Assembly (NCBI GenBank): GCA_036399275.1
Contig: DASWNK010000148.1
Coordinates: 1,784-65,783 of the forward strand
Direction of reading: 5' to 3'
Length of the DNA stretch: 64,000 nucleotides
From: Bacteroidia bacterium
GTDB taxonomy: Bacteria; Bacteroidota; Bacteroidia; 2-12-FULL-35-15
Part shown: positions 12,941 to 57,388 of the stretch, piece by piece
Layout: every line of letters starts with the position of its first letter
Numbering within the stretch: the first letter of the stretch is position 1
Translations under genes and position numbers: made by a program
Notes under the pieces: generated by a model
Told to the model about the DNA's origin: nothing
The model's input: the letters and a program-made list of their open reading frames with translations, nothing else
Database searches by the model: none

Positions 12941-12944
12941 AAAA

Positions 12945-37748: not shown

Positions 37749-37750
37749 CA

Positions 37751-37782: not shown

Positions 37783-37809
37783 AAGAAATAAATTATAACT
37801 TTGTAGCCT

Positions 37810-38010: not shown

Positions 38011-38020
38011 AATTAACACC

Positions 38021-38121: not shown

Positions 38122-38150
38122 GCTAAAGATTTGATTTTCTACATTTAGAA

Positions 38151-38180
38151 ATGTAATGATTTGTAATGAATTGATAATGA
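38151..38180 (+). repeat. Three 10-bp phased iteron-like repeats ATGTAATGAT / TTGTAATGAA / TTGATAATGA
   Basis: Read directly from the sequence. The third unit contains TTGATA. Confidence 0.8.
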
Positions 38181-38216
38181 GGCAGTTACAAGAACTCGTA
38201 CGTTGTTAGCTAAATA

Positions 38217-38609: not shown

Positions 38610-38635
38610 ATATATAAATTATTCAATATTCGTTA

Positions 38636-39556
38636 TCAATGGTGCCTGCCGGCACCATGATAACTTAATTTTTTAGAGTATAGAAAGCCCTTACGTGCGG
38701 AATGTTCATATACCCGCTCCATTGGCAGGCGTTCTATTGTTTTTTTTCTTTTTTTTATTTCTTCTTTCTCTCTCTCAATGGGTGCATTGGGCAAGTATGG
38801 CTTATAGACTTGTTGAGGGCTCTGTTTTTTTTCTTTATTAATTCTTTCGTTTACTTGCTGATCTATTAAAGCCCTGTAAGTATGCACCCTGTTTTGTTCC
38901 TGCAAGTTTTCGCCTCTTATAACACCCTCACGTTTCACCTCAGCATATAGTTTACCGCAATACAGTAGTTGAATAAGCGGGTAAAGGTTTGTTTCTGTTT
39001 TTTTTCTTTTATTCATTTCTTCTTTGGTTTGTTTACTATAAATATTTATAGAAATGCGTTTTTGGTAGTTGAGGGCAAAATTTTCTTTGCTTGCTGGCAG
39101 GGTGTTTCCAAGTTGCTTGCTTAAATAGCTATATATAAAGTCGCTTGTAACTTGTCGGGAAACAATGTGAATTGATCTACATCCCATTTGCTTTTTAATC
39201 TTGTTGAGGTGGTTTTTCTCCTTATAATATACGATCTCGCTTAATTGACTGAGGTAATCCTTTGCAATGAATAAGTGTATATGTAGCTCAGGCTCTAAAT
39301 TGAAATCTGCATATCCATTGTAATGAGTTAAGGAGCTGTTTTGTTCTAATACCAATATGTATGGGGGTTGCTCAGGTAATAAGTTGCTTATATAGGTGTT
39401 TGCCTCCTTAGCTGAGTATATGCGTGTCTTAGGTTGAATGGTAACGAACATCATATTTTGCCCATTGTCCCCAAACAAAGTGAGGTACTTGTTATAGAAA
39501 CTTTCAAGGGCTTCTTTCTTAGTTAGATATGAGGTTTTATAGGTGTTTGGTGGCAT
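38636..39556 (-). CDS. HUH-type rolling-circle replication initiator-like protein
   Basis: Three ordered motifs: FVTIQP (motif I-like), ELHIHLFIA (HUH, codons 39275-39283) and YSYLSKQ (YxxK, 39116-39127). Lys/Glu-rich C-terminal tail. ATG at 39556 preferred over the TTG at 39586. Confidence 0.5.
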   Translation of the reverse strand: MPPNTYKTSYLTKKEALESFYNKYLTLFGDNGQNMMFVTIQPKTRIYSAKEANTYISNLLPEQPPYILVLEQNSSLTHYNGYADFNLEPELHIHLFIAKDYLSQLSEIVYYKEKNHLNKIKKQMGCRSIHIVSRQVTSDFIYSYLSKQLGNTLPASKENFALNYQKRISINIYSKQTKEEMNKRKKTETNLYPLIQLLYCGKLYAEVKREGVIRGENLQEQNRVHTYRALIDQQVNERINKEKKQSPQQVYKPYLPNAPIEREKEEIKKRKKTIERLPMERVYEHSARKGFLYSKKLSYHGAGRHH

Positions 39557-39837
39557 TGGGCAAAAGTTCAACTTCCGTAAACTCAATGTTTACGCTGGTT
39601 TTAGCTGTTTTAAATGTTAGTAAAAAAATAGGGGCTCAAAGTATCTACACCTCAACCCCTCTTATCAACATCACTTTTCCTTTCGATCTCTAATAAATAG
39701 AGGAATAAAAGAATAGTATCGAATTTGACCTATCAAAACCAAATGAAAGTTGCAGTTTTTTGCCTGTAAAATTATAACTACTTGATTATGAGGTAGAATA
39801 AATTTTGTGCTTTTGTTGGGTGTGTATTTATTTTTTT

Positions 39838-40119
39838 ATGGGTCATCCCTATAAGCGGATGACAGACAAGAAACTCATCCAATTATTAAAGCAACAAAAT
39901 GCCGAACTCCTTAAGGCGTTGCAAAAGGAATTAGCCCCGCTCAGGAGAAAGAAATACTACACCTATAAAGAGGCAAGCGAGATATTATGTATTAGCGTGG
40001 AGGGCTTAAAAACACGATTGAAACGAGGCGAAATGTTTAAGGTGTGTAATAACGGGCGACCTCTGATCTCAGGGGTTGAGATTGACAGATATTTAAAATC
40101 ACAAAACCCAGGATTTTAA
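39838..40119 (+). CDS. Helix-turn-helix (excisionase/MerR-like HTH_17) DNA-binding protein
   Basis: The block YTYKEASEILCISVEGLKTRLKRGEM is typical of the small HTH proteins found beside Bacteroidota integrases. Transcribed divergently from rep. The start could be 39838 or 39859. Confidence 0.6.
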   Translation: MGHPYKRMTDKKLIQLLKQQNAELLKALQKELAPLRRKKYYTYKEASEILCISVEGLKTRLKRGEMFKVCNNGRPLISGVEIDRYLKSQNPGF

Positions 40120-40128
40120 TAAAATAAA

Positions 40129-40151
40129 ATGGTGGGGAAAGTCCCCACCAT
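40129..40151. terminator. Perfect 10-bp hairpin between convergent HTH and int genes
   Basis: ATGGTGGGGA-AAG-TCCCCACCAT. No clean T-run follows, so terminator function is uncertain. Confidence 0.4.
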
Positions 40152-40173
40152 GAAGATTCTAATAAATTTTAGA

Positions 40174-41397
40174 TTATGCTATTTTCATATTGGAGAAAAC
40201 ATTTACAAGTTTCTCATCGACTTTACTTTGTTCTAAGTTTACATAGCGGGAAAACGATCTGTAATCGGAGTGCGTACTCATTTGCATTACCTCAGATATT
40301 GAAAGCCCCCCCTCCAATGAAATGGATATAAAACTTTTGCGTGCATCGTGTATCGAAATCAATTCGTGTACTGGTTTTTGTTCCTGTGTTTGATTGTTGA
40401 GGTGTTGAATAATAATCGTTTCCTCTCGATCAATTCCGCAAAGTTTAACCCCTGCTTTGATGTTCTTATTTAACTTTTGATTTGATATATCTAAAGGCAA
40501 TACATTGTTGTACTTAGCAAGTATCTGCACTGCCTCAGGAATTAATTTAATACGGAGCTCTGTATTAGTTTTGTGTGTGTTGATATGTAGGTACCCGTTC
40601 TTAATGTTGTGTTTATTTACCTGCATCAAATCGTTATAGCGTAAGCCAAGGAAGGTTGCGAAACAAAACACGTCCTTTGCCCTTTCAAGATTTGTTTTGT
40701 CTTTGAAATCAAAATGGAAATACTGGAATAGTTCGTTTTGATGTAGTGTTATAATACGTTGATCTGTTTCTTTAACACGTTTTATTTTCATCCAGTCAGT
40801 TGCTGAGGTGTGCTTATTGTCAAAAGCCCAACGACAAAACACTTTGAGTGTTACGATCATTTTGTTAATTGTTGGGTTTTGTAAATTCTTTGAGCCCTTA
40901 ACGTGTTTGCTTTTTGTGCTCAAAAACTTGGCGAACTTTTCCGCCCATTTCGGATTCATATCGGCAAATTGTGTAGAGGGGTTGAAATCTTGCAGGTGGT
41001 TTATAAGGGTTGTAAATGGCTTAAGTGCACCCTCTTTCAAAAATCCTGCTCTCTCTCCTTTGAATTGTTCTAATAAGGCGGTTAAGTCTTTCTTGCCACG
41101 TTCAACATTGATAGTGTTTACATTGGCTGTAATGAAATCTTTTGCCTCGCTAAGACTTGCAATGTCATTGGCTAACTTTACATTCGTCATATATTTTTCG
41201 AATGCACTTTGGTATTTATTCAGGTATAACTTAATATTGTCGTTTTTACTTCCTGCTTTTGGCTTGCCCTCTTTCCATTGGTTAATGACGATCTTTTGAC
41301 CTGTTGAAATAATTGCTTTTACTCCACGCTCTGAAAGTATCCCACGTATAGTTCCTTCCTTGTCGTTGATCTTTTTTAATTCAAAATAAAAGTGCAT
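40174..41397 (-). CDS. int: Tyrosine site-specific integrase (Bacteroidota phage-integrase family with N-terminal arm-binding/SAM-like domains)
   Basis: Catalytic residues are readable: R in LGLRYNDL, HxxR in IHDARKSF, and H...Y in HSDYRSFSRYV. Start set to ATG 41397 (MHFYFELKK) because the ORF-track extension translates the TACGCACCC repeats. Confidence 0.88.
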   Translation of the reverse strand: MHFYFELKKINDKEGTIRGILSERGVKAIISTGQKIVINQWKEGKPKAGSKNDNIKLYLNKYQSAFEKYMTNVKLANDIASLSEAKDFITANVNTINVERGKKDLTALLEQFKGERAGFLKEGALKPFTTLINHLQDFNPSTQFADMNPKWAEKFAKFLSTKSKHVKGSKNLQNPTINKMIVTLKVFCRWAFDNKHTSATDWMKIKRVKETDQRIITLHQNELFQYFHFDFKDKTNLERAKDVFCFATFLGLRYNDLMQVNKHNIKNGYLHINTHKTNTELRIKLIPEAVQILAKYNNVLPLDISNQKLNKNIKAGVKLCGIDREETIIIQHLNNQTQEQKPVHELISIHDARKSFISISLEGGLSISEVMQMSTHSDYRSFSRYVNLEQSKVDEKLVNVFSNMKIA

Positions 41398-41442
41398 CTT
41401 GTTGAGGTGTTTGGTTATGCAAATGTAATTCTTTTTATAAGA

Positions 41443-41463
41443 TACGCACCCAACTACGCACCC
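41443..41463 (+). repeat. Two TACGCACCC repeats, 12 bp phase (candidate arm-type sites, right arm / int promoter region)
   Basis: TACGCACCC at 41443-41451 and 41455-41463, in the same orientation as the left-arm copies. They lie 46-66 bp upstream of the int ATG (41397) and 53 bp from the attR core. Confidence 0.85.
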
Positions 41464-41515
41464 AAACAATACAATTAATATGCAAGTATCTGATTGTCAA
41501 TTAAGTAAAATAAAA

Positions 41516-41538
41516 GGTTCGAACCCAGTAGTTCCCAC
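41516..41538 (+). repeat. attR core (orphan copy of the tRNA-Val 3' end)
   Basis: GGTTCGAACCCAGTAGTTCCCAC. No tRNA 5' half lies upstream; the flank is AAAA instead of CACT. Confidence 0.9.
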
Positions 41539-41547
41539 GGAAAAAGA

Positions 41548-43971: not shown

Positions 43972-46095
43972 ATGAAAAATGCGCTTCGGTTAATTTTATT
44001 GATTTTCAACTGTTTCATCGTTAACCATGGATTCGGACAAATCATAAACCCTATTCACTGGAGCTTTAGCAGCGATAAAATAAGCAATTGCGAATTCGAT
44101 CTTATTATTAAAGCAAAGCTTGATGGTGGCTGGCATTTATACGGTCAGAAATCATATGGCGACGATGGCCCCATTCCCACTTCTTTTCATTTTACGCCCA
44201 ATGCCAACTATGAATTAATAGGGACGGCTTCAGAAAAAACATTGATTAAAAAATACGACTCTGTTTTTGGATTAGAGTTAAATTACTTTGAACACAAGGC
44301 GACCTTCCGTCAGAGAGTGCGGATCAAATCGGATCAGGCGATTGGGATCAAGGGTGAATTTGAATTCATGGTTTGCAACGAAGTTTCCTGTCAGCCTCCC
44401 ACTCTTGTACCCTTTTCATTTAAACTACAAGGCTCGGCGGATTGCAAAAATGTTTCAGGATCATCAGCAGGTGCAAACATGCCTTGCGACTGTGATTTAA
44501 ATAGAATAGCAAGAATATGCTTTTCAAACAATGGAGGCCCGGCAATTGCAGAAGACAAAACGGAAACAAGTACAGAGGAAACGGAAGGAATCGGAACTTC
44601 TCCCCTAGAAAACATACCTGCTTATACATCCGAAAATTCATCCAGCTATCCAATCAGCTGGTGGAGCATTTTCATTATGAGCTTTCTTGGTGGAATAGCG
44701 GCCTTGTTAACTCCTGCTGTTTTTCCGATGATTCCGATAACACTTTTCTTTTTCTCGCGGCTTAACAAAACACCGGAAAAAAGTATTTCTAATGCCTTGA
44801 CTTTCTCCACAGCCATTATTTTCACGTTTGTCGTTTTAGGATTTAGTCTTGTTTCCTTTTTCAACCGTTTAAGTTCACAATCAACAAATGTCTTTTTTAA
44901 TCTCTTGCTTTTCGCAGCATTAATTCTCATTGCCATTTCTTTTCTTGGCGCCTTTAAATTTTCGCTTATGGCAGGTCTTGCTCCTAAAAGCGATTCAAGG
45001 TTTAACCTGAAAGAACTAATAGCAATCCTTTTCCTAACATGTGTATTGTGCGTATTATCCCTTTCATGTGCTGGCCCGATCATTGGAACTATATTGATAC
45101 AGGCAGCAATAAACGGTGGCGCTCATGATATGCTCTGGGCACTCAGTGGTTTCACAGTTGCCCTGGCGATTGCCTTTGGCACATTAGCTTTCATTTCAAG
45201 AAGATTAAATTTGTTTCTGAATCCAGGAAGCTGGCGCCATACTGTTAAGATCGTTTTAGGATTTTTAGCATTGGTATTTGCACTTAAATTTGCTTCCAAT
45301 GTTGACCTAATTACTCAATCGGGCATTCTTACACGCGAAGTATTTATTTCTATTTGGATCATGCTCTTCGGAATACTTGGAATTTATTTGTTGGGAGGCA
45401 TAAAACTATCCCACGATAAAGAGATGACTTATTTATCGGTGCCGCGCTTGTTTGCAGCAATACTTGTTTTTTCGTTTACCTTTTATTTGATCCCCGGATT
45501 GTGGGGTGCACCCTTAAAGCTGATCAGCGGTTTTATTCCTCCTCTTGAATACAGTGAATCACCCGGGGGATTGCGAATATCAGAAAACAGGCAGGCTGTA
45601 TCAAATGATACAACTGTTACGGTGCATAAAAAAGAACATTGTCCGAATGAGCTGCCTTGCTTCCACGATTATGATGAAGCCTTAGCCTATGCGCGAAAAG
45701 TAAACAAACCATTAATGATTGATTTCACGGGTTGGGCTTGTGTGAGCTGCAGAAGCATGGAATCAAAAGTTTGGGCCGATGCTGAAGTTGACGCTCGCCT
45801 CAGGAATGAAGTAGTGCTGGTATCGCTTTATGTAGATGACAAAACCGACTTACCCGCTGATCAGCAAACAATAAAAAAGCTGGGTGATCGTGATTTCGCT
45901 ATTACAAGTATTGGAAACAAATGGTGTTACCTGCAGGCAAACCGTTATAAAACCAATTCTCAACCTCAATACATTCTCATTGACAATAAAGAACAAATGC
46001 TTACACAAAATACCAAAGGCTATGATCCCGATGTTCAGAATTACATTGATTGGCTGGACGAAGGAATCAATGAATATAAAAAGCGGGCAAAATAA
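43972..46095 (+). CDS. DsbD-family paralog with altered transmembrane cysteine set
   Basis: Colinear with 10772-12940, and the C-terminal thioredoxin domain is highly similar (WACVSC). The first conserved TM Cys is Ala (LLTPAVFPM, codon 44716-44718). An extra CVLC sits just upstream of the conserved second TM Cys (LTCVLCVLSLSCAGPI). Confidence 0.82.
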   Translation: MKNALRLILLIFNCFIVNHGFGQIINPIHWSFSSDKISNCEFDLIIKAKLDGGWHLYGQKSYGDDGPIPTSFHFTPNANYELIGTASEKTLIKKYDSVFGLELNYFEHKATFRQRVRIKSDQAIGIKGEFEFMVCNEVSCQPPTLVPFSFKLQGSADCKNVSGSSAGANMPCDCDLNRIARICFSNNGGPAIAEDKTETSTEETEGIGTSPLENIPAYTSENSSSYPISWWSIFIMSFLGGIAALLTPAVFPMIPITLFFFSRLNKTPEKSISNALTFSTAIIFTFVVLGFSLVSFFNRLSSQSTNVFFNLLLFAALILIAISFLGAFKFSLMAGLAPKSDSRFNLKELIAILFLTCVLCVLSLSCAGPIIGTILIQAAINGGAHDMLWALSGFTVALAIAFGTLAFISRRLNLFLNPGSWRHTVKIVLGFLALVFALKFASNVDLITQSGILTREVFISIWIMLFGILGIYLLGGIKLSHDKEMTYLSVPRLFAAILVFSFTFYLIPGLWGAPLKLISGFIPPLEYSESPGGLRISENRQAVSNDTTVTVHKKEHCPNELPCFHDYDEALAYARKVNKPLMIDFTGWACVSCRSMESKVWADAEVDARLRNEVVLVSLYVDDKTDLPADQQTIKKLGDRDFAITSIGNKWCYLQANRYKTNSQPQYILIDNKEQMLTQNTKGYDPDVQNYIDWLDEGINEYKKRAK

Positions 46096-46307
46096 ATGAG
46101 CTTAGCGCTCGATTGAATAAACTTCCTTATTATCTCCCTTTTTGCCCTCCCGGAAACCAATCCATCCTCCCTTTATTCTTCTTTAAAAGCCATCATTCAG
46201 TACAAATTCTGATAATTCAAAAGAATTTTGTGTCTTTTTCGCCCTGAAATGGATAAATGCCTACCTTCAATCCCTAAATATCTAAATCAACCCTAAACCT
46301 ACTCGTT

Positions 46308-47786
46308 ATGCAAGCAAAAATTGACAAGCATACCCTTCATAAAACTCCTACGGGTATTGATGGATTGGACGGACTCACAGAAGGCGGATTTCCACAGGGA
46401 AGACCAACATTGGTCTGTGGTGGAGCTGGTTGCGGCAAAACTCTTTTGTCGATGCAATTCCTGATCAATGGAATTATCCAGTATAATGAGCCGGGCGTTT
46501 TTATGTCCTTCGAAGAAAGCTCGAAAGACTTAACATCAAATGTTAGCTCCCTGGGCTTTGATCTTGAAACACTAATAGCAGAAAAAAAGCTGGTGATTGA
46601 GCATGTTCGCGTTGAGCGCTCACAAGTGGAAGAAACCGGAGAATATGATTTGGATGCTCTTTTTATACGATTAGGATATGCCATTGATAAAATAGGTGCA
46701 AAGCGAATTGTTCTGGATACGATTGAAACACTCTTCTCCTGCTTTTCAAATGAAGCGGTGTTGAGAGCTGAGCTTCGCAGACTGTTTGGCTGGATCAAAG
46801 AAAAAGGTGTTACTGCTGTGATCACTGCCGAAAAAGGCGTGCATTCTTTAACCCGCCAAGGACTCGAAGAATATGTTTCGGATTGTGTTATCTTATTGGA
46901 TAACCGTGTTATCGACCAGGTATCTACACGAAGATTAAGAATTATTAAATACCGCGGCTCAACCCATGGCACCAATGAATATCCTTTCCTGATTGATGAG
47001 GAAGGAATCTCCGTTCTACCTATCACTTCCTTAAAGCTCGATAATAAAGTTTCTTCCGAAATTATCTCCACAGGAGTTCCCGGACTAAACGAAATGTTTT
47101 TAAGCGGGGGATTGTACAGAGGAAGCAATATTCTAATTTCCGGATCGGCCGGAACTTCTAAAACAACCATTGCCTCTTACTTTGCAAATGAACAATGCAT
47201 GAGAAACGAAAGAGTGATTTATTTTGCTTTTGAAGAATCGCCTCAGCAGCTTATCCGCAATATGCGTTCTATTGGAATTGAATTGGAACCACATGTTGAA
47301 AAAGGAAATCTTCAGATCCATTCTTATCGCCCGACCTTAAATGGTTTGGAGCTTCACCTTTTAACCTTAAAGAAACTTGTCAGGGACTTTAAGCCGCAGA
47401 CAGTGATCATTGATCCTATCAGTAATTTGGTGTCAGTTGGAAATCCGAATGAAGTAAACTCCATGCTCGTTCGATTAATCGACTTGTTAAAAGTGAATAA
47501 TATCACTGCACTCTTCACTTCATTGAACCCTTATGCTAATTCCGATTTCACCGAAGATTCTATTTCTTCCCTCGTGGATACATGGCTGGCAGTGCGTGAT
47601 GTTGAAAGAGCCTCAGAAAGGAACCGAGGATTGTACATCATTAAAGCACGCGGATTGGCGCATTCAAACAAAGTAAGAGAGTTTATCATTACTTCGAAAG
47701 GAATCAAGATCCTGGATATTGAAAAAGGGCCGCATGGAATACTCACCGGCTCCGAAAGAGCGGAACAGCCTAATAACATCGATTAA
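46308..47786 (+). CDS. kaiC: Circadian clock protein KaiC homologue (double RecA-like domain ATPase/autokinase)
   Basis: 492 aa with two Walker A motifs (GGAGCGKT, GSAGTSKT). The CII region TEDSISSLVDT aligns by eye with cyanobacterial TDSHISTITDT. kaiB follows directly. Confidence 0.9.
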   Translation: MQAKIDKHTLHKTPTGIDGLDGLTEGGFPQGRPTLVCGGAGCGKTLLSMQFLINGIIQYNEPGVFMSFEESSKDLTSNVSSLGFDLETLIAEKKLVIEHVRVERSQVEETGEYDLDALFIRLGYAIDKIGAKRIVLDTIETLFSCFSNEAVLRAELRRLFGWIKEKGVTAVITAEKGVHSLTRQGLEEYVSDCVILLDNRVIDQVSTRRLRIIKYRGSTHGTNEYPFLIDEEGISVLPITSLKLDNKVSSEIISTGVPGLNEMFLSGGLYRGSNILISGSAGTSKTTIASYFANEQCMRNERVIYFAFEESPQQLIRNMRSIGIELEPHVEKGNLQIHSYRPTLNGLELHLLTLKKLVRDFKPQTVIIDPISNLVSVGNPNEVNSMLVRLIDLLKVNNITALFTSLNPYANSDFTEDSISSLVDTWLAVRDVERASERNRGLYIIKARGLAHSNKVREFIITSKGIKILDIEKGPHGILTGSERAEQPNNID

Positions 47787-47795
47787 AGAAAGCGC

Positions 47796-48146
47796 ATGCC
47801 CGAACAGATCAGTATAGAATTACTAAGGAACACAAAAAACGACTCCGTGGAAAACAAGGAACAGGAATGGCAACTTCGACTCTATATCGCTGGCCACACG
47901 CCTAAATCAATCAAAGCAATCGATAATCTGAAAAATTATTGCGAACAGCATTTAGCCGGAAGGTATTCAATTGAAGTGATCGATCTGTTAAAGAACCCTC
48001 AACTGGCAGAAGACGACCAGATTCTTGCGATCCCAACATTGATACGCAGGTTCCCTGAACCAATGCGTCAAATTATCGGCGATTTATCCAACGAAGAAAA
48101 AGTATTGGTTGGCTTGAATATTATCCCGGTACCAAAATTAAAATAA
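47796..48146 (+). CDS. kaiB: Circadian clock protein KaiB homologue
   Basis: [12 protein letters not shown]...[24 protein letters not shown]...[15 protein letters not shown] closely matches the KaiB thioredoxin-like fold sequence. Starts 9 nt after the kaiC stop. Confidence 0.92.
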
Positions 48147-48149
48147 TGG

Positions 48150-50114
48150 ATGTTTAACCTATCGGGTAATACTGATATAACAGAAATTAATACTTTGGAA
48201 AATACTACTATAAATAACCGCGAGGGTCTAAACAGAATAGCAGAATTAGAGCACCAGTTGCTTGAAGCTAAAAACCTCATTTATGCCATCCGTCATGGAG
48301 AAGTGGATGCGCTGCTTCTGAACAAAGATGGAAAAGCAGATGTTTATTCCCTCGAAAACATTGATTATACTTACCGCGTATTAATTGAGAAATTTGCCGA
48401 AGGTGCTTTGAGCATCTCCAACGAAGGCTTGATCCTCTATTGCAATTCGTACTTTTCCGAGCTTATCAATCTTCCTATCAGCAAAATTGTGGGCTCTTAC
48501 TTTAGTTCCTACTTTTCCGACCATGAAATCTATTTAAAATTATTGACGGATATTAAGGAAGGCGTTTATAAAGGGGAAATCCTTTTAGCGATAAAAGAAA
48601 AACGGATTCCTGTTTATATTTCCATTACCAGTCTTGCACCTAATTTGCCGGGCTTTGGAATTATTTTAAATGACCTGACGGATAAGAAGAAAAGTGAACA
48701 GATCATTCTCGACCACCAGCAACAACTGGAAGAAAAAATAGAGGAGCTGAATCACCACGAAAAAAAACTTAGCCAGGCCAACAAAGCGCTTCTTCTCCAA
48801 AATGAAGAAAAAGAAAAACAAGCCGCTGAGCTGATCGCCGCAAATACCGAGCTTACGTTTATGATCGGAGAAAAAAGAAAGCGCATGGCGGAGCTGAACA
48901 TTGCTTATACGGATGTAAAAGAGCAGACTGAAGCAAAGAATAAAGCCGAAGCTGCAACGCTGATTGCTGAAGAATCCGTAAAGGCAAAGCAGCAATTCCT
49001 GGCCAATATGAGCCACGAAATAAGAACGCCGATGAATGCGATCATCGGCTTTACCAATGTGGTATTAAAAACAAAGCTGGATAAAGATCAACTAGAATAC
49101 ATCAATGCGATTAAGATCTCGGGAGATGCATTGATCATTTTAATTAATGACATTCTTGATCTTGCAAAAGTAAATGCAGGAAAGATGACCTTTGAACAAG
49201 CCCCCTTTCATTTGTCCGACTCCATTTCCACCATGCTTCATTTGTTTGAGGCAAGGATCAAAGAAAAGAATTTAGAATTGGTCCATGACTACGATCAGGC
49301 TATTCCTCGTCTTTTGATGGGCGATCCGATGCGCCTGCGTCAGATAATATTAAATCTGGCAAGCAATGCTATCAAGTTTACCTCGGAAGGAAAAATAAGC
49401 TTGCGCATTCAATTACTTGAAGAAGATGCGGAGCGTGCAACTGTTAAATTTGAATTATCCGATACGGGAATTGGAATTCCGGAAAATAAACTTGAAAACA
49501 TCTTTAACAATTTTGAACAAGCACACCTTAACACCAGTAATTCCTATGGAGGAACGGGCTTAGGGCTCGCCATCGTGAAACAGTTGGTGGAGCTTCAGGG
49601 TGGGACGGTTTTTGTTAACAGTATAACAGGCGAAGGTTCCACTTTTGGCTTTATTCTGACCTTTGATAAAGCAAACGCTGAAATAGAAAAAGAAATAGTA
49701 CCTGACCTGAAATATATTGCAAACAGTGCTATTGCGGAAACACTGATCGACAACGTAAAAGTATTGGTTGCCGAAGATCTGCCACTGAATCAACTTCTGA
49801 TAAAAATTATATTAGCGGAGTTTGGTTTCGATCTGGATATTGCCGGCAATGGTAAAATTGCCATCGAAAAACTGCGTCAGAATAAGTATGATATTGTTTT
49901 GATGGATTTGCAAATGCCCGAAATGAATGGCTTTGATGCAACCGAGTACATCCGGAAACAATTGGATTCCCAGATTCCCATTATTGCTCTTACTGCGGAT
50001 GTTACCAGCATCGATGTGGAGAGATGTAAAACCGTTGGAATGAACGATTATATTTCTAAACCCATCGACGAGAAATTATTATACAGCAAGATGGTTAAGT
50101 ACCTGAGGAAATAA
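48150..50114 (+). CDS. Hybrid sensor histidine kinase (PAS - coiled coil - HisKA - HATPase_c - receiver)
   Basis: H-box MSHEIRTPMNAIIGF. N/G boxes (LASNAIKFT, DTGIGI, GGTGLGLAI). Receiver with DIVLMDLQMPEMNG and a downstream conserved K in DYISKP. Starts 3 nt after the kaiB stop. Confidence 0.9.
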   Translation: MFNLSGNTDITEINTLENTTINNREGLNRIAELEHQLLEAKNLIYAIRHGEVDALLLNKDGKADVYSLENIDYTYRVLIEKFAEGALSISNEGLILYCNSYFSELINLPISKIVGSYFSSYFSDHEIYLKLLTDIKEGVYKGEILLAIKEKRIPVYISITSLAPNLPGFGIILNDLTDKKKSEQIILDHQQQLEEKIEELNHHEKKLSQANKALLLQNEEKEKQAAELIAANTELTFMIGEKRKRMAELNIAYTDVKEQTEAKNKAEAATLIAEESVKAKQQFLANMSHEIRTPMNAIIGFTNVVLKTKLDKDQLEYINAIKISGDALIILINDILDLAKVNAGKMTFEQAPFHLSDSISTMLHLFEARIKEKNLELVHDYDQAIPRLLMGDPMRLRQIILNLASNAIKFTSEGKISLRIQLLEEDAERATVKFELSDTGIGIPENKLENIFNNFEQAHLNTSNSYGGTGLGLAIVKQLVELQGGTVFVNSITGEGSTFGFILTFDKANAEIEKEIVPDLKYIANSAIAETLIDNVKVLVAEDLPLNQLLIKIILAEFGFDLDIAGNGKIAIEKLRQNKYDIVLMDLQMPEMNGFDATEYIRKQLDSQIPIIALTADVTSIDVERCKTVGMNDYISKPIDEKLLYSKMVKYLRK

Positions 50115-50191
50115 TAATCAGAAAAAATCATTTCAAAACCGCACGCCGCTGAACAAGCTCCCGATTGTTTGTCTGCCCTATTTTTAATCAT

Positions 50192-51154
50192 ATGCTATTT
50201 TTTAATTACCGGAGAACGGCCCTTCTTATTATTGCCGCATTGCTATCGTCTTTCGTTTCTTTTGGTCAGGCCATCGCGCCTACAAAAATGGATGAAGCCA
50301 TCTTGTCGATCTCCGACAGGACTTACGTTTCTTTCGGACAGGGGCTCGGGAATTACCGAACGCCTTATGGGATCAAGCTGTTGAATCCCTTGGTATTTGA
50401 AGGACAAGCGTCACCCGACTTTATTTTAAAGCTTTCGAAAAAAAGAAATGCCGGCTTGGCTTTCTTTCCAAAGATCGTGATCCGCATGTTTCATGAAGGC
50501 AGCGTACCGGTACGAACACCCAGCTATATGCCTAGCATCTTATTGTATCATCAGATCGACTGGCCTGTTCTTAAAAAGCCTTTCCGCTTTTTTATTGCAC
50601 CTGAAAATCAGCTCACCTTTATTACGTATCGCCTGATTCATCATTCCAATGGACAAAATGGCGACTACCTTATTCAGGGAACCGATAGCATCAATTATAT
50701 AAATGGCAACTTCTCTTCGAACGCCGCCGAGATTGCTTTTAGCTGGTCGGCCATTGATTCCAGCTCTGCCGGTAAAGCGTTTATGAATGGAAGGATCGCG
50801 TATGAGCGGCAATTAGATTTTGAACGGGAAGGTCAGATGAAGAATAGCTATTACTATAATAAGCTTACTGCCGAAAGCCATATTATTTATTCGGAAAAAA
50901 TAAAAATTTATGCGACCTATTCCTTTATGTGGGGAACAAAACAATTCGGAACAAGAAACTCACTGGATGTTTTCCTTGTGATGAAGCCCTATAGCAGGCT
51001 CGCCAACTTCTCCGTTTTTATACGAGGCTATGTTGGTCCGGATTATTACAACCTTTATTATGAGAACATGCTAAGAACCTGCACCATTGGGATCATCGCC
51101 GATCCACTAAGCATTCCGAGGTTCAGGAAAGAAAAGAAAATTTTGAAAAATTAA
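50192..51154 (+). CDS. Outer-membrane phospholipase A (OMPLA/PldA)-like beta-barrel protein
   Basis: Signal peptide from the ATG at 50192. HHSNGQ matches the OMPLA catalytic HxSNG motif. Alternating beta-strand pattern and an aromatic C-terminal region. Confidence 0.5.
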   Translation: MLFFNYRRTALLIIAALLSSFVSFGQAIAPTKMDEAILSISDRTYVSFGQGLGNYRTPYGIKLLNPLVFEGQASPDFILKLSKKRNAGLAFFPKIVIRMFHEGSVPVRTPSYMPSILLYHQIDWPVLKKPFRFFIAPENQLTFITYRLIHHSNGQNGDYLIQGTDSINYINGNFSSNAAEIAFSWSAIDSSSAGKAFMNGRIAYERQLDFEREGQMKNSYYYNKLTAESHIIYSEKIKIYATYSFMWGTKQFGTRNSLDVFLVMKPYSRLANFSVFIRGYVGPDYYNLYYENMLRTCTIGIIADPLSIPRFRKEKKILKN

Positions 51155-54601: not shown

Positions 54602-55273
54602 ATGATGAAAACCGATCTAGAAATTCAACAGGATGTAATGGAAGAGCTTAAATGGGAGCCTTACCTGACCGCAAGCGAAATAGGTGTGTCCGTTCGTAAA
54701 GGAGTGGTAACGCTTTCAGGGATCGTGGATACCTTCGCAAAAAAAGTGCTGGCAGAAAAAGCTGCTTTGCGCGTAGCAGGTGTAAAAGCGGTTGCTGAAG
54801 ACATTGAAGTGGAACCTGTTTCGGACGGAATAAAAAATGATACAGAAATTGCCGAAGCAGTGATGCATGCCTTAAAATGGAACAGTGCTGTTCAGGAAGA
54901 AAAAATAAAAGTTAAAGTGGAGAATGGCTGGGTAACGCTGGAAGGCGAAGTTCAGTGGGAATTCCAACGAAACACAATCAAAGCGGCTGTTGAACCACTC
55001 GTAGGGGTCGTTGGTATTTCCAATTACATTGATATTCGTCCGGAAGTTAAAGCGGAAGACGTGAAGCGCCAGATCAATTCTGCTTTTCACCGCAGCGCCA
55101 CTGTTGATGCAGAAAATGTAAAGATCAGTGTGAACGGAAGCAAAGTGGTCCTGAGCGGAAAAGTTCGTTCCTACTCTGAGAAACAAGATGCCGAAGATGC
55201 CGCATGGGCTGCTCCCGGAGTGATCACTGTTGAAAATAACATTGAAGTTGATTCGGAGATGGTGGCCTATTAA
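54602..55273 (+). CDS. BON-domain (OsmY-like) protein, three BON repeats
   Basis: The pattern V.V..G.VTLSG.V......AE.AA..V.GV..V.N.I.V recurs three times. Confidence 0.8.
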   Translation: MMKTDLEIQQDVMEELKWEPYLTASEIGVSVRKGVVTLSGIVDTFAKKVLAEKAALRVAGVKAVAEDIEVEPVSDGIKNDTEIAEAVMHALKWNSAVQEEKIKVKVENGWVTLEGEVQWEFQRNTIKAAVEPLVGVVGISNYIDIRPEVKAEDVKRQINSAFHRSATVDAENVKISVNGSKVVLSGKVRSYSEKQDAEDAAWAAPGVITVENNIEVDSEMVAY

Positions 55274-55321
55274 TTTACAGACTACTCCATATAAATAGAA
55301 AACACCTAATACTATAAGATT

Positions 55322-56143
55322 ATGATTAAGAAGATCGTTTGCCCGACAGATTTTTCCCAGGCCGCTAATAACGCAACGGAATATGCAGCAAAGCTTGCCC
55401 AGCTTTTTGGCGCCGAGGTTTTATTTATTAATGTACAAAGGGTTTCGCCCATGACTGCTGCGGTGAGCTTGGGAGAAAGCCCCACGGCCCAGGTAAGGGA
55501 GAATTCACGCATTGCAGTTCAGCTCCTGAAGGACCTGAGCGTTGAAGCCAACAAGATGTTTAAGATCTCAGCGGATTATGAAGTGGACATCACCACTAAG
55601 TCGCTGGAAAAGATCCTGTCGGAATTTGAAGGCAATGTATTGATTGTGATGGGCACCAACGGAATTGATGATACCTATCAGTATCTTTTCGGAACCAACA
55701 CGTATCAGGTGGTTCAAAAAGCAAACTGTCCGGTAATGATCATTCCCGAGAATGTTACTTACGGTGACATAAGCAAAGTTGTTTTTGCCTGGAAGGTTTA
55801 CAACAGCAAATTTGCTTATCCGGCGCTCTATGATTTTCTGGATGCTTTTCATCCGAAATTTGTTTTTCTGCACATCAATAAGGACCGAACCAAAAGCGCC
55901 GAAGATGTATTCAGGATCTTGAGGGATGTTACTATTTTTGGTGAAAAGGCCGAAACAGATTACATTGAAGTTTATTCTGACGATGTTCCTGAGAGCATTA
56001 ACCGCTACATGATACAATCACAATCGGATCTCCTTGTGCTCAGCTATCAGAATAAAGGCGCTTTAGAAAGAATATTCCGTACCAGCATTATTAAAGATAT
56101 GAGCGCAACAGCGGTTTATCCGATCTTGGTGCTGCACGGCTAA
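55322..56143 (+). CDS. Universal stress protein (tandem UspA domains)
   Basis: MIKKIVCPTDFSQAANNATEYAAKLA... and a second half ending DLLVLSYQNKGALERIFRTSIIKDMSATAVYPILVLH. Confidence 0.8.
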   Translation: MIKKIVCPTDFSQAANNATEYAAKLAQLFGAEVLFINVQRVSPMTAAVSLGESPTAQVRENSRIAVQLLKDLSVEANKMFKISADYEVDITTKSLEKILSEFEGNVLIVMGTNGIDDTYQYLFGTNTYQVVQKANCPVMIIPENVTYGDISKVVFAWKVYNSKFAYPALYDFLDAFHPKFVFLHINKDRTKSAEDVFRILRDVTIFGEKAETDYIEVYSDDVPESINRYMIQSQSDLLVLSYQNKGALERIFRTSIIKDMSATAVYPILVLHG

Positions 56144-56164
56144 TTAAATTAAATTCATTCCAAC

Positions 56165-56707
56165 ATGAAACTTGTATCTGCATTCTGCTTAATCTTCTTC
56201 TCCTGTTTTGCAGCGATAAAATGCAAAGGGCAAACCTCCCTGATGCAGGATTCGGTGAAAGAATTTAAACATGCCATTGGAGCAGGCGCGGGCTTTACCA
56301 CAGGCTATGGCTTGTCGTACCGCTTTATACCAAAACGATTTGGGATGCAGGTAAACTTCGCTCCTTATCATACATCAGAAACGGATCGATACAGTGTCGG
56401 GCTAACTTTTCTATGCCGTCTTATCCAAAGCCGGAACAGCAATTTATTTCTTTACCAGGGCAATCACTATTTTTATAATTCCGAAACCATCTCCTATGTC
56501 GAGCGCCCGCATCCCGGACAAACCACAGAGCCTCCTATCGTTACAACAAAAAACATTGAACGATATGTGAACAATGGCTTGGGAATAGGCATCGAATTCA
56601 TCATCGCCAAACGGATTGCTTTCGACCTGATGGCCGGTTATGCGGCCTATGATAATTTCAACAAGGTAAATTTTACCGGCGAAACAGGCTTGTATTTCAA
56701 GTTTTGA
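56165..56707 (+). CDS. Small outer-membrane beta-barrel protein (hypothetical)
   Basis: Signal peptide, alternating amphipathic strands and a C-terminal ...GLYFKF aromatic terminus. Confidence 0.55.
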   Translation: MKLVSAFCLIFFSCFAAIKCKGQTSLMQDSVKEFKHAIGAGAGFTTGYGLSYRFIPKRFGMQVNFAPYHTSETDRYSVGLTFLCRLIQSRNSNLFLYQGNHYFYNSETISYVERPHPGQTTEPPIVTTKNIERYVNNGLGIGIEFIIAKRIAFDLMAGYAAYDNFNKVNFTGETGLYFKF

Positions 56708-56746
56708 AAAGCGTATTTCTTTCCATAAATTAACACAAGCGAGCCC

Positions 56747-56959
56747 TTATTTTATTTCAGGATTCTTCTGCGGCTGTACTTCCGGATTGGGCAATGGCTT
56801 TATTTCCGGTTGAGGAGGCATCGGTTTCACATCCGGCTTTGGCGTTTCGGGTTTGTTCGGATCCGGTTTTGGAACAATCTCCGGTTCTATGTTAGGGACA
56901 GTTGGAGGAGCCGGAGGCTTGATCTCCGGCTTTTCCTTTTGACGATCGTTATTTTTCAT
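56747..56959 (-). CDS. Proline/lysine-rich 70-aa protein with PEIKP repeats
   Basis: About one third of residues are Pro. PEIKP-like units occur three times. The ORF overlaps the stop of the upstream TerB-like gene by 11 nt. Confidence 0.45.
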   Translation of the reverse strand: MKNNDRQKEKPEIKPPAPPTVPNIEPEIVPKPDPNKPETPKPDVKPMPPQPEIKPLPNPEVQPQKNPEIK

Positions 56960-57359
56960 CTCTGGTTTTTATTTTATTGAGTTTCTGTTCCAGCTTTTTG
57001 ATCAATGCACTTTCCTTCTTATTTGTTCCGTGATACGCAGCCGCTAATTCTTTAACAACATACAGGCAGATCTTTTTCATTTTTGAATCAAAAGCCGTAT
57101 GATGCTCCTCCACAAAATCGATGAAGGATTCAAAAGCAGATTCGGTATCAGCATTGGATTCCTCCAGGTAATCAAAAGTAATCTCCGAATAATAAGCTGC
57201 ATCGGTTCCGAATTCATCCTCGTGTGCTTCCGCTGGCACCAGCTCTTTGCTGATGATCATCTGTAATGCACGTTTTTCTTCCGGCGTGATCATGCCATCA
57301 ATATCGGCCACAGCATAAAGTAATTTCCCCAGCTCTGCATAAAACTCTTTGTAAATCAT
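56949..57359 (-). CDS. TerB-family (tellurite-resistance TerB / DjlA N-domain-like) protein
   Basis: The block LGKLLYAVADIDGMITPEEKRALQMII is typical of the TerB fold. Confidence 0.65.
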   Translation of the reverse strand: MIYKEFYAELGKLLYAVADIDGMITPEEKRALQMIISKELVPAEAHEDEFGTDAAYYSEITFDYLEESNADTESAFESFIDFVEEHHTAFDSKMKKICLYVVKELAAAYHGTNKKESALIKKLEQKLNKIKTRDEK

Positions 57360-57388
57360 CTGTTCCTCCCTTCATTTGTTCATTACGC

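What the first reader, a model, noticed from the sequence alone, without database searches (positions are those of the whole stretch)
46308..50114. kaiC-kaiB-hybrid histidine kinase operon in a Bacteroidota genome, without kaiA
Three tightly packed genes (gaps of 9 and 3 nt) encode:
- A full double-domain KaiC.
- An unmistakable KaiB.
- A PAS/HisKA/HATPase/receiver hybrid kinase in the position where an output kinase would be expected.

No KaiA-like gene is in the window, and the gene order is C then B, unlike the cyanobacterial kaiA-kaiB-kaiC order.

Established knowledge: KaiBC-only systems outside cyanobacteria can act as hourglass-type timers or stress modules. Such systems are barely studied in non-photosynthetic Bacteroidota.

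The dedicated PAS hybrid kinase, and a TPR-SpoIIE phosphatase 2.5 kb upstream, suggest a self-contained timing or stress signalling module.
Basis: partly seen in the sequence, partly recalled or inferred. Interest (0 to 1): 0.68.

Follow-up and report, generated by a model that had tools for sequence, protein, structure and literature searches.

The report
KaiA-free KaiC-KaiB-PAS kinase cassette, tail-less KaiC
The three genes are a real KaiC-KaiB-sensor kinase operon of a type already known outside cyanobacteria. It is largely ordinary, except that this lineage's KaiC has lost the coiled-coil tail its closest relatives use to reset the protein.

Summary
kaiC (46308-47786), kaiB (47796-48146) and a PAS-HisKA-HATPase-receiver hybrid kinase (48150-50114) are tightly packed on the + strand. 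No KaiA match was found in any window ORF.

The system belongs to the known KaiA-independent KaiC2/KaiB2 class. The best solved relative is the Rhodobacter sphaeroides 'hourglass' KaiC, and the phosphorylation sites are Ser-Ser. Public databases already annotate this protein as KaiC.

The order kaiC-kaiB(-kaiB)-PAS effector is conserved in about 150 related loci from several phyla. Five of five distant homologues of the kinase's PAS module sit directly after kaiC-kaiB, whatever their output domain (HisKA, HisKA_2/HWE, HisKA_3, GGDEF-EAL).

Three things are particular here:
- The window's KaiC clade (492-497 aa) is nested among 556-588 aa Bacteroidota KaiCs and has lost the coiled-coil tail. 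It ends about 5 residues before the engineered KaiCRS-Δcoil truncation.
- It keeps one kaiB where the sampled Bacteroidota relatives have two.
- Its kinase core was swapped for a hybrid type.

The genes are under strong purifying selection.

The TPR-SpoIIE phosphatase is not a conserved neighbour.

I read the locus as an environment-driven phospho-switch or hourglass, not a self-sustained clock. It is a new member of a known kind, of moderate-to-low interest.

The parts
46096..46307 (+). Intergenic region of 212 nt upstream of kaiC, the presumed promoter region. It holds a GAATTTTG at 46223, a 7-of-8 match to the Bacteroidota -7 motif TAnnTTTG.
   Evidence: Sequence; motif search. The -7 motif consensus is from my own knowledge. 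Consensus-level only; promoter function is inferred, not shown.
46308..47786 (+). kaiC, 492 aa, KaiC2/KaiCRS-type, with no C-terminal coiled-coil tail. Motifs: CI Walker A GGAGCGKT (aa 38-45); CI catalytic EE (aa 69-70); CII Walker A GSAGTSKT (aa 279-286, non-canonical Ser before Lys); CII catalytic EE (aa 309-310); phosphorylation sites S420/S421; CII Arg finger R448.
47142..47165 (+). Codons for the CII P-loop GSAGTSKT. Two of the nine substitutions diagnostic for the tail-less clade lie here (T280S, A284S).
47565..47570 (+). Codons for S420-S421. These align with the KaiCRS phosphorylation sites S413/S414 and with S. elongatus S431/T432.
   Evidence: The alignment to 8DBA and invariant columns. 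Site identity comes from PMC10076222 and PMC5520375.
47796..48146 (+). kaiB, 116 aa from the ATG, or 99 aa if it starts at the GTG at 47847. It is the orthologue of the first of the two kaiB genes in related loci. The second kaiB paralogue is absent here.
48150..50114 (+). Hybrid sensor histidine kinase, 654 aa. Layout: N-terminal helix aa 13-48; conserved GEVDA motif aa 50-54; PAS aa 70-175; long coiled-coil linker aa 177-247; DHp aa 256-342 with His289; catalytic domain aa 351-507; receiver aa 538-646 with Asp586.
48207..48779 (+). Kai-associated PAS module (aa 20-210). This is the part of the kinase that stays conserved with kaiC-kaiB across phyla while the output domains are exchanged.
49761..50087 (+). 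Fused receiver domain with all canonical residues: E542/D543, D586, T615, K637. It is a true phospho-acceptor, not a CikA-like pseudo-receiver.

Best explanation
This is a chromosomal KaiA-independent Kai cassette of the KaiC2/KaiB2 class, made up of kaiC, kaiB and a dedicated PAS sensor kinase.

**Shown**
- The three genes form one tightly packed unit.
- That unit is conserved as such in the window's clade and, with an extra kaiB, in about 150 related loci.
- KaiC keeps the catalytic glutamates, the Walker lysines, the arginine fingers and the Ser-Ser phosphorylation sites.
- It lacks the C-terminal coiled coil of its closest relatives, and that loss is derived.
- All three genes are under purifying selection.
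- The PAS module of the kinase travels with kaiC-kaiB while the output domain changes.

**Inferred mechanism**
1. KaiC forms a single hexamer rather than a coiled-coil dodecamer.
2. It autophosphorylates S420/S421 constitutively when ATP is high, because KaiC2-type proteins lack the network that buries the A loop.
3. KaiB binds the CI ring of phosphorylated, post-hydrolysis KaiC.
4. The state of the KaiC-KaiB complex is read, or is set, through the kinase's N-terminal helix and PAS module. This controls His289 autophosphorylation and transfer to the fused receiver Asp586.
5. The step after Asp586 is unknown. No HPt protein or dedicated DNA-binding regulator is encoded in the cassette.

The engineered tail-less Rhodobacter KaiC autophosphorylates normally but hardly dephosphorylates, and it falls apart when KaiB binds. 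I therefore expect this system to act as an environment-driven (ATP/ADP or stress) phospho-switch, or a slow hourglass. I do not expect a self-sustained circadian oscillator.
For: **Family and motifs**
- Family assignments.
- The closest solved relative is R. sphaeroides KaiC (8DBA/8DB3), at 578 bits. The alignment ends at window residue 486, which pairs with 8DBA residue 481.
- Catalytic motifs and the Ser-Ser sites.

**Tail loss is real and derived**
- All 80 genome relatives have a 556-588 aa KaiC. The window's clade has 492-497 aa.
- The F. johnsoniae tail aligns to the KaiCRS coiled coil out to residue 546.
- The short clade is monophyletic and nested among long forms in a neighbour-joining tree.
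- Within the short clade, kaiC dN/dS is 0.02-0.06 with synonymous sites saturated.

**Linkage**
- kaiC-kaiB-kaiB-PAS kinase is found in 78 of 80 genome loci.
- 46 of 50 metagenome loci with at least 1.5 kb downstream have the PAS module.
- In the window's clade, four contigs (five loci) show the complete triad. The short P0003 contig ends inside kaiB.
- Five of five distant PAS-module homologues lie directly after kaiC-kaiB, with HisKA_2, HisKA, HisKA_3, GGDEF-EAL and HWE outputs.

**Experimental analogues from the literature**
- KaiCRS-Δcoil is a hexamer. It phosphorylates at 5.5 per hour, shows little dephosphorylation, and disassembles on KaiB binding (PMC10076222).
- KaiC2-type proteins show KaiA-independent kinase activity (PMC5520375).
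- F. johnsoniae KaiC is arrhythmic in vitro (PMC12081879).
Against: - No biochemistry exists for this protein.
- The CII P-loop is non-canonical (GSAGTSKT instead of GxxxxGK[ST]), so CII nucleotide binding and kinase activity cannot be taken for granted.
- Natural tail-less proteins may have compensated for the missing tail. Four of the nine clade-diagnostic substitutions lie around the CII active site. The Δcoil phenotype may therefore not transfer.
- Whether the PAS kinase is an input or an output is not resolved by any result here.
- Co-transcription is inferred only from spacing and from the absence of a convincing internal terminator.
- The tree has no bootstrap support values.
Confidence: 0.65

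Rival explanations
1. It is a genuine self-sustained circadian oscillator that runs without KaiA, giving this non-photosynthetic Bacteroidia bacterium an anticipatory 24-hour clock.
For: The KaiC catalytic and phosphorylation motifs are intact and KaiB looks canonical, at about 101-104 bits to both cyanobacterial and Rhodobacter KaiB structures. The genes are under strong purifying selection.
Against: - No KaiA or KaiA3-like gene is in the window.
- KaiA3 orthologues outside cyanobacteria were reported in only five non-Bacteroidota genera (PMC11372060).
- The nearest characterised relatives are not self-sustained. KaiBCRS is an hourglass driven by the ATP/ADP ratio (PMC10076222), and F. johnsoniae KaiC was arrhythmic in vitro (PMC12081879).
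- The tail needed for fast autodephosphorylation in KaiCRS is missing here.
Confidence: 0.05
2. It is a stress-response signalling module with no time-keeping role at all, as proposed for Legionella and Pseudomonas KaiBC. KaiC would act only as an ATP- or stress-sensing ATPase-kinase that gates the PAS kinase.
For: - KaiB/KaiC homologues are linked to stress responses in Legionella pneumophila and in Pseudomonas species (cited in PMC5520375 and PMC11372060).
- The downstream neighbourhood holds stress-type genes: MarR, BON and Usp in the window and CsbD in L083.
- The module sits in a different genomic context in every clade member that shows its flanks, which suggests an accessory function.
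Against: This overlaps with, rather than excludes, the best explanation. A phospho-switch driven by ATP/ADP is both a stress sensor and an hourglass. The neighbouring stress genes are not conserved neighbours. Nothing here distinguishes timing from non-timing use.
Confidence: 0.25
3. The truncated KaiC is a decaying remnant: a pseudogenised cassette left after deletion of the tail and of kaiB2, no longer functional.
For: The cassette has lost a regulatory tail and a kaiB paralogue compared with all 80 sampled genome relatives. Its CII P-loop is non-canonical.
Against: - kaiC dN/dS is 0.02-0.06, kaiB 0.07-0.12 and the kinase about 0.10. Synonymous sites are saturated between clade members, so the tail-less form has been maintained for a long time.
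- The reading frames are intact in five loci and eight protein clusters.
- The P-loop change is also fixed, as Ala, in the tail-bearing Flavobacterium-type relatives.
Confidence: 0.03
4. The upstream TPR-SpoIIE (PP2C) phosphatase is a functional component, the external phosphatase that resets the tail-less KaiC. This would make a four-to-five-gene module.
For: A tail-less KaiC may need help to dephosphorylate, by analogy with Δcoil. A SpoIIE domain 57% identical to the window's lies immediately upstream of kaiC, divergently oriented, in L020 and L045.
Against: - None of the other clade loci that show upstream sequence (L082, L083, L085, L086) has a SpoIIE gene within the sequence shown.
- L020 and L045 carry long-tailed KaiC and a different sensor architecture, dCache-HAMP.
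- A related phosphatase domain lies near kaiC in only 2 of the 168 other loci. By my own rough estimate, not computed, this is about what chance gives for an abundant Bacteroidota paralogue family.
- In the window the gene is on the opposite strand and is separated from kaiC by a DsbD-like gene.
Confidence: 0.07

Closest known systems
Rhodobacter (Cereibacter) sphaeroides KaiBC hourglass: KaiCRS/KaiBRS, PDB 8DBA, 8DB3, 8FWI, 8FWJ (Pitsawong et al. 2023, PMC10076222)
   Same: It is the best solved relative of both proteins: KaiC 578 bits over residues 11-486, KaiB 101.6 bits. Shared features are the Ser-Ser phosphorylation sites, the lack of KaiA and the kaiC-then-kaiB order. A PAS histidine kinase is reported in or next to the R. 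sphaeroides kaiBC operon (PMC5520375, PMC10931921).
   Different: The window's KaiC has no C-terminal coiled-coil extension of roughly 50-70 aa, so it cannot form the tail-mediated dodecamer. It ends about 5 residues before the engineered KaiCRS-Δcoil stop at E490. The CII P-loop is GSAGTSKT here, against GVAGAGKS in KaiCRS.
Flavobacterium-type Bacteroidota cassette kaiC(long)-kaiB1-kaiB2-PAS kinase, for example F. johnsoniae UW101 KaiC ('group IV', arrhythmic in vitro; PMC12081879)
   Same: These are the nearest sequence relatives: KaiC 71-76%, KaiB1 about 70-79% and PAS module 45-55% identical. They have the same gene order and tight spacing, and share the Gly-to-Ala/Ser change in the CII P-loop.
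   Different: The relatives have a 556-588 aa KaiC with a coil, two kaiB genes, and a non-hybrid kinase of about 418 aa. The window has a 492 aa KaiC, one kaiB, and a 654 aa hybrid kinase whose catalytic core is only 26-30% identical to theirs.
Cyanobacterial KaiABC oscillator with SasA/CikA-RpaA output (Synechococcus elongatus PCC 7942)
   Same: Both have a double-domain KaiC with the same catalytic residues and homologous phosphorylation-site positions, a KaiB of the same fold family, and a histidine kinase coupled to the Kai proteins.
   Different: - There is no KaiA and no KaiA-binding tail.
- The window's KaiC fails the cyanobacterial equivalog model TIGR02655 (355 bits against a cut-off of 546).
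- The gene order is C-B, not A-B-C.
- The kinase has a PAS N-terminus. It has neither SasA's KaiB-like domain nor CikA's GAF plus pseudo-receiver, and the receiver here keeps its Asp.
Legionella pneumophila KaiBC stress module (Lpp1115, PDB 4KUN)
   Same: It is a KaiA-free kaiC-kaiB operon in a non-photosynthetic bacterium. The literature links it to stress resistance rather than to rhythms (cited in PMC5520375 and PMC11372060).
   Different: Legionella KaiB is a much more distant relative, at 63 bits against about 100 bits for cyanobacterial and Rhodobacter KaiB. I did not examine the Legionella locus for a PAS kinase.

Membership tests
KaiC (double-domain RecA-superfamily ATPase/autokinase) | Two tandem KaiC/RecA-like domains, scoring above the curated family cut-off | tested here: met
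   Pfam PF06745 gives two stretches at E=7e-119. NCBIfam NF006799 scores 717.8 bits against a cut-off of 408.
KaiC (double-domain RecA-superfamily ATPase/autokinase) | Walker A GxxxxGK[ST] and a catalytic Glu-Glu in both the CI and CII domains | tested here: inconclusive
   CI has GGAGCGKT and E69/E70, which is canonical. CII has E309/E310 and K285/T286, but its P-loop reads GSAGTSKT, with Ser in place of the Gly before Lys. The functional effect is unknown.
KaiC (double-domain RecA-superfamily ATPase/autokinase) | Phospho-acceptor pair at the positions of S431/T432 | tested here: met
   S420/S421 are invariant in the alignment and align with KaiCRS S413/S414. This is the Ser-Ser pattern typical of KaiC2 (PMC5520375).
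KaiC (double-domain RecA-superfamily ATPase/autokinase) | ATPase, autokinase and autophosphatase activity | not testable with these tools
   This needs purified protein.
Cyanobacterial clock KaiC (KaiC1; works with KaiA) | Scores above the equivalog model TIGR02655, and has a C-terminal A loop plus KaiA-binding tail | tested here: not met
   TIGR02655 scores 355.3 bits against a cut-off of 546.25. The protein ends 6 residues after the A-loop-equivalent segment.
KaiCRS-type coiled-coil KaiC (dodecameric hourglass) | C-terminal extension of roughly 50-70 aa that forms the inter-hexamer coiled coil | tested here: not met
   The window's KaiC stops at residue 492, which corresponds to about KaiCRS residue 485. 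All 80 genome relatives carry 60-95 further residues, homologous to the KaiCRS coil.
KaiCRS-type coiled-coil KaiC (dodecameric hourglass) | Closest sequence affiliation with the KaiC2/KaiCRS clade | tested here: met
   The best PDB hits are 8DB3 and 8DBA at about 578 bits, against about 330-371 bits for cyanobacterial KaiC. The protein nests among tail-bearing Bacteroidota KaiCs.
KaiB | KaiB domain above the family threshold | tested here: met
   Pfam PF07689 scores 92.2 bits against a cut-off of 27. NCBIfam PRK09301 scores 109.6 bits against a cut-off of 110, marginally below. PDB KaiB structures match at 100-104 bits.
KaiB | Fold switching and binding to the KaiC CI ring | not testable with these tools
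   No complex prediction or experiment is available here.
KaiA / KaiA3 | A gene with a KaiA domain near kaiBC | tested here: not met
   No Pfam KaiA hit in about 53 window ORFs, nor in the gene calls of loci L081-L086. Genome-wide absence could not be tested.
SasA / CikA clock-output kinases | SasA: an N-terminal KaiB-like thioredoxin domain. CikA: a GAF domain plus a C-terminal pseudo-receiver lacking the Asp. | tested here: not met
   The N-terminus is a helix plus a PAS domain. NF006800, the model labelled only 'histidine kinase' that I take to be the SasA-type family, scores 120 bits against a cut-off of 342, on the kinase core only. The receiver keeps D586, T615 and K637.
Hybrid two-component histidine kinase | H-box His, N/G1/G2 boxes and a fused receiver with the acidic pocket | tested here: met
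   The kinase has SH289EIRTP, an N-box at 402, G1 at 438, G2 at 467, and receiver residues E542/D543, D586, T615 and K637. The best fold matches are the GacS/RetS kinase regions.
KaiC2-KaiB2-PAS effector cassette (conserved gene neighbourhood) | kaiC, then one or two kaiB, then a gene whose N-terminus is the conserved helix-GEVDA-PAS module | tested here: met
   The window has this order. It is found in 78 of 80 genome loci and 46 of 50 metagenome loci, and in 5 of 5 distant PAS homologues.

The most novel reading that the evidence does not exclude
Two linked ideas remain open.

1. The helix-GEVDA-PAS module is the dedicated coupling domain of KaiC2/KaiB2 systems, a functional counterpart of SasA's KaiB-like domain. 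It would plug the Kai phospho-state into interchangeable outputs: three histidine-kinase families and c-di-GMP enzymes.
2. The window's clade is a natural 'Δcoil' experiment. After losing the tail, it would have re-tuned the CII active site (P-loop T280S/A284S, M450L/Q455K) and rewired its output to a hybrid phosphorelay. The result would be a hexameric, non-resetting or externally reset KaiC switch, mechanistically distinct from both the KaiABC oscillator and the KaiBCRS hourglass.
Probability: 0.3. Interest if true: 0.55.

Novelty: new member of a known kind. Interest (0 to 1): 0.35.

Why it matters
Kai systems without KaiA are the ancestral and by far the most widespread form, yet only the Rhodobacter one has been dissected mechanistically.

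This locus adds nothing categorically new. It is a standard KaiC2/KaiB2/PAS-kinase cassette that public databases already annotate.

It does offer a compact natural test case for the role of the coiled-coil tail. It is a long-maintained, purifying-selected KaiC that ends almost exactly where the engineered Δcoil mutant was cut, sitting next to tail-bearing sister lineages. Comparing the two would show how a KaiC resets without either KaiA or the tail.

The survey also shows that the same PAS module follows kaiC-kaiB regardless of output domain. That gives a concrete candidate for the still-unknown link between non-cyanobacterial Kai proteins and the rest of the cell.

Tried and rejected
- **Tail loss and kaiB2 loss as one coupled event.** This held perfectly in the 80 genome loci plus the 5 loci of the window's clade. 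A broader sample rejected it as a general rule. Long-tailed KaiC occurs with a single kaiB (L089; about ten loci). Tail-less or short-tailed KaiC occurs with two kaiB (L151, L166, L159, L133, L155; L170).
- **The cassette lies on a mobile island.** A small integrative element is bounded by the tRNA-Val 3' end at 37591-37614 and its repeat at 41516-41539. It ends before the SpoIIE gene and does not include the kai genes. The flanks of the cassette do differ between clade members, and a Tn3 transposase lies near it in L083/L084, so past mobility is possible.
- **The unannotated ORF after the kinase (50165-51154) as a KaiA-like protein.** It looks, by eye, like a signal-peptide-bearing protein. 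It has no Pfam hit even at E<=10 and no homologue in any other locus.
- **SpoIIE as a conserved partner.** Not supported.
- **Collection scans for more members of the tail-less clade.** The clade is therefore known here only from 8 protein clusters and 5 distinct loci.
- **The 3-residue gap before the phosphorylation sites as a clade-specific deletion.** KaiCRS lacks these residues too, so the polarity of the change is unclear.
- **Promoter and terminator scans.** They gave nothing above the shuffled background.

Full report

Yes. The three ORFs sit on the + strand at exactly the coordinates given: 46308-47786 (492 aa), 47796-48146 (116 aa) and 48150-50114 (654 aa).

- The first is a two-domain KaiC. 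Pfam PF06745 scores E=7e-119 with two stretches, and NCBIfam PRK09302 scores 717.8 bits against a cut-off of 408.
- The second is a KaiB. Pfam scores 92 bits. NCBIfam PRK09301 scores 109.6 bits against a cut-off of 110. Solved KaiB structures match at 100-104 bits.
- The third has HisKA, HATPase_c and a receiver domain.

It is nevertheless borne out by an AlphaFold model built on 41 homologues. The model shows an N-terminal helix at 13-48, a five-stranded PAS fold at 70-175 (pLDDT 84-94), a long linker helix at 177-247, then DHp, the catalytic domain and the receiver. More distant homologues also carry clear Pfam PAS hits in the same region. The best fold matches are GacS/RetS kinase cores and PAS/LOV-kinase chimeras.

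The 9-nt and 3-nt gaps hold for the longest ORFs. kaiB may instead start at a GTG at codon 18, giving 99 aa and a 60-nt gap, which matches the 97-99 aa homologues.

No KaiA domain was found in any of the roughly 53 window ORFs of 80 aa or more.

The window is chromosomal Bacteroidota DNA. It carries a dcw cluster with the Bacteroidetes-type FtsL, SecA, TilS, and T9SS-sorted proteins. The identical KaiC is already public as 'circadian clock protein KaiC [Bacteroidia bacterium]'.

**2. Which kind of Kai system is it?**

The best solved relative of KaiC is the Rhodobacter sphaeroides protein (8DB3/8DBA, about 578 bits, against 330-371 bits for cyanobacterial KaiCs). The protein fails the cyanobacterial equivalog model TIGR02655 (355 bits against 546).

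The phospho-acceptor pair is Ser420-Ser421, the Ser-Ser signature of the KaiC2 group (PMC5520375).

Schmelling et al. 2017 already singled out Bacteroidetes as encoding only KaiB2/KaiC2-like proteins. They also noted a histidine kinase in the R. sphaeroides kaiBC operon. PAS kinases next to kaiBC are also described for R. rubrum. F. johnsoniae KaiC, 73% identical to the window's, was purified and found arrhythmic in vitro (PMC12081879).

So 'KaiBC plus a kinase, without KaiA, in Bacteroidota' is a known kind.

**3. Is the linkage conserved?**

I fetched 80 genome loci. Most are Flavobacterium, but the set also includes Hymenobacter, Mucilaginibacter and Segetibacter, plus MAGs labelled Janthinobacterium and Methanoperedens. 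I also fetched 80 metagenome loci and the contigs of the window's closest relatives.

In the genome set the order is invariably kaiC, then kaiB1, then kaiB2, then a kinase of about 418 aa, with gaps of a few bases. This holds in 78 of 80 loci; the two exceptions are truncated contigs. In the metagenome set, 46 of the 50 loci with at least 1.5 kb downstream have the kinase's PAS module after one or two kaiB genes.

The conserved part of the kinase is the N-terminal helix-GEVDA-PAS module, not the catalytic core. The module is 45-55% identical to Flavobacterium-type proteins, against 25-30% for the core.

I then searched with only residues 1-270 and looked up five distant hits. All five lie directly after kaiC-kaiB(-kaiB), and their output domains all differ:

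| Hit | Output domain |
|---|---|
| P0162 | HisKA_2 |
| P0166 | HisKA |
| P0180 | HisKA_3 |
| P0176 | HWE/HisKA_2 |
| P0185 | GGDEF-EAL |

The PAS module is therefore the Kai-associated element, and outputs are exchanged around it. I found no paper stating this generalisation, but my literature search was limited.

**4. What is special about the window's version?**

(a) *KaiC has lost its tail.* The window's KaiC and seven near relatives (85-93% identical, 492-497 aa) stop where all other sampled relatives continue for another 60-95 residues. The F. johnsoniae tail aligns with the structurally defined KaiCRS coiled coil out to residue 546.

In a neighbour-joining tree the short clade is monophyletic and nested among long forms. 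The deeper branches (Hymenobacter, Segetibacter and others) are also long. The loss is therefore derived (no bootstrap values).

The window protein ends at the equivalent of about KaiCRS residue 485, five residues before the engineered KaiCRS-Δcoil stop at E490.

(b) *One kaiB.* The clade keeps only the kaiB1 orthologue.

(c) *A chimeric kinase.* Within the clade the PAS module is 64-76% identical. The kinase core of the window and of L082 is only 28-30% identical to that of L083 and L085. It carries an extra linker and a fused receiver that is not orthologous to the stand-alone receivers encoded next to the other cassettes. The window's kinase is thus the Kai-type PAS module joined to a BarA/GacS-like hybrid core.

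(d) *The genes are functional.* kaiC dN/dS is 0.02-0.06, kaiB 0.07-0.12 and the kinase about 0.10, with synonymous sites saturated.

(e) *Few diagnostic changes.* Only nine positions are fixed differently between the short clade and at least 95% of the long forms. Two are in the CII P-loop (T280S, A284S) and two lie just after the CII arginine finger (M450L, Q455K).

Tail loss is not unique to this clade. Other tail-less KaiC2-type genes, or ones with a short basic tail, occur in metagenomes, immediately followed by kaiB. Tail length and kaiB copy number vary independently across the wider family. I therefore dropped the idea of a coupled loss.

**5. What about the surroundings?**

The flanking genes differ in every clade locus that shows them:

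| Locus | Flanking genes |
|---|---|
| Window | SpoIIE and DsbD-like upstream; unknown, BrkB, MarR, BON, Usp downstream |
| L082 | ECF sigma factor and YCII upstream; GAPDH downstream |
| L083/L084 | Receiver genes on both sides; CsbD and a Tn3 transposase downstream |
| L085 | T9SS proteins upstream; OmpA downstream |

The conserved unit is therefore the three genes, plus a receiver that is either fused or encoded separately.

The TPR-SpoIIE phosphatase is not a conserved neighbour. A 57%-identical phosphatase domain, on a dCache-HAMP sensor, does lie divergently upstream of kaiC in two related MAG loci (L020, L045). That is 2 of the 168 other loci, which by my rough estimate is about what chance would give for this abundant paralogue family.

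A small integrative element (tRNA-Val, a small-terminase-like gene, an integrase) is bounded by a 24-nt repeat at 37591-37614 and 41516-41539. It ends before the SpoIIE gene.

**6. How does it most likely work?**

*Shown.* The motifs, the architecture, the conserved linkage and the purifying selection.

*Established for relatives (PMC10076222).*
- KaiCRS autophosphorylates without KaiA because its A loop is exposed.
- The coiled coil accelerates autodephosphorylation and stabilises the oligomer.
- KaiB binds the post-hydrolysis CI state and speeds the night-time reset at a low ATP:ADP ratio.
- KaiCRS-Δcoil is a hexamer with normal nucleotide exchange and phosphorylation (5.5 per hour), little dephosphorylation, and disassembly on KaiB binding.

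*Inferred for the window.*
- KaiC is a hexamer that phosphorylates S420/S421 readily when ATP is high.
- KaiB recognises the phosphorylated, ADP-bound state.
- The helix-PAS module couples that state to His289, and from there to Asp586 of the fused receiver. No HPt or DNA-binding partner is encoded nearby.
- The reset is either slow or achieved in another way, for example by KaiB-driven disassembly or an external phosphatase.

The behaviour would be that of a switch or an hourglass, not a free-running clock. Whether the PAS kinase acts as input or output is unresolved.

The non-canonical CII P-loop is a caveat for CII activity. It reads GSAGTSKT here, GTAGTAKT in Flavobacterium-type KaiC, and the canonical GTAGTGKT in Segetibacter and in the Methanoperedens-labelled MAG.

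**7. Verdict**

This is a new member of a known kind, the KaiC2/KaiB2/PAS-kinase cassette.

Its lineage-specific features make it a useful natural counterpart of the Δcoil mutant: a derived loss of the tail, a single kaiB and a swapped hybrid kinase core. The Kai-associated PAS module with interchangeable outputs is the most interesting by-product of the analysis. Interest is 0.35.

Noticed in passing
window 37538-41539: A small integrative element next to tRNA-Val (37538-37614). The last 24 nt of the tRNA are repeated with one mismatch at 41516-41539, just past a tyrosine integrase (40174-41469, - strand). The element also holds a Terminase_2-like gene (38217-38609) and unknown ORFs, and its GC content drops to about 0.37.
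   Followed up: partly
window 47142-47165; KaiC of L001-L086: The CII Walker A of Bacteroidota KaiC is non-canonical. It reads GTAGTAKT in Flavobacterium-type and Hymenobacter proteins and GSAGTSKT in the window's clade. It is the canonical GTAGTGKT in Segetibacter and in the Methanoperedens-labelled MAG, and GVAGAGKS in KaiCRS. The conserved Gly before the Lys has thus been replaced and fixed across a large clade.
   Followed up: partly
L170 2937-6347: A short KaiC (456 aa) and two kaiB genes are followed by a PAS-GGDEF-EAL protein that carries the same PAS module as the window's kinase. This is a Kai cassette apparently wired to c-di-GMP signalling instead of a histidine kinase.
   Followed up: partly
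L020 7314-9641 (- strand) and L045 about 7314-8114: A dCache-HAMP-SpoIIE sensor phosphatase is the immediate divergent neighbour of a long-tailed kaiC. Its phosphatase domain is 57% identical to the window's TPR-SpoIIE protein. The association is rare: 2 of the 168 other loci.
   Followed up: partly
window 10691-17951: A second DsbD-like thiol:disulfide interchange protein (10691-12940) is a paralogue of the one just upstream of kaiC (43972-46095). It is followed by a multihaem-cytochrome-like protein (12900-15020) and a large FG-GAP/ASPIC protein sorted by the T9SS (15075-17951).
   Followed up: no
window 54602-58450: Stress-type genes lie downstream of the cassette: BON (54602-55273) and a universal stress protein (55322-56143). 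There is also an unusual response regulator combining receiver, cNMP-binding and Crp-type HTH domains (57389-58450, - strand). Its receiver is 38% identical to the kinase's fused receiver. None of these are conserved neighbours of the cassette.
   Followed up: partly
L077 and L080: Bacteroidota-like kaiC-kaiB-kaiB-PAS kinase loci, 66-67% identical to the window's KaiC, are found in MAGs labelled Janthinobacterium lividum and Candidatus Methanoperedens. This could be horizontal transfer or binning contamination.
   Followed up: no
L083 and L084: In one clade member the cassette lies between a resolvase, rve fragments and a chemotaxis-type CheB/CheR kinase on one side, and a Tn3-family transposase on the other. 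This hints that the cassette can move on transposons.
   Followed up: no
window 48297-48311 (kinase aa 50-54) and alignment A2: A GEVDA motif at the end of the N-terminal helix is nearly invariant across 41 Kai-linked PAS proteins (G50 and D53 invariant, A54 in at least 90%). AlphaFold models the motif and the segment that follows (aa 52-71) with low confidence (pLDDT below 50). It could be a binding motif that folds only on contact with a partner.
   Followed up: no
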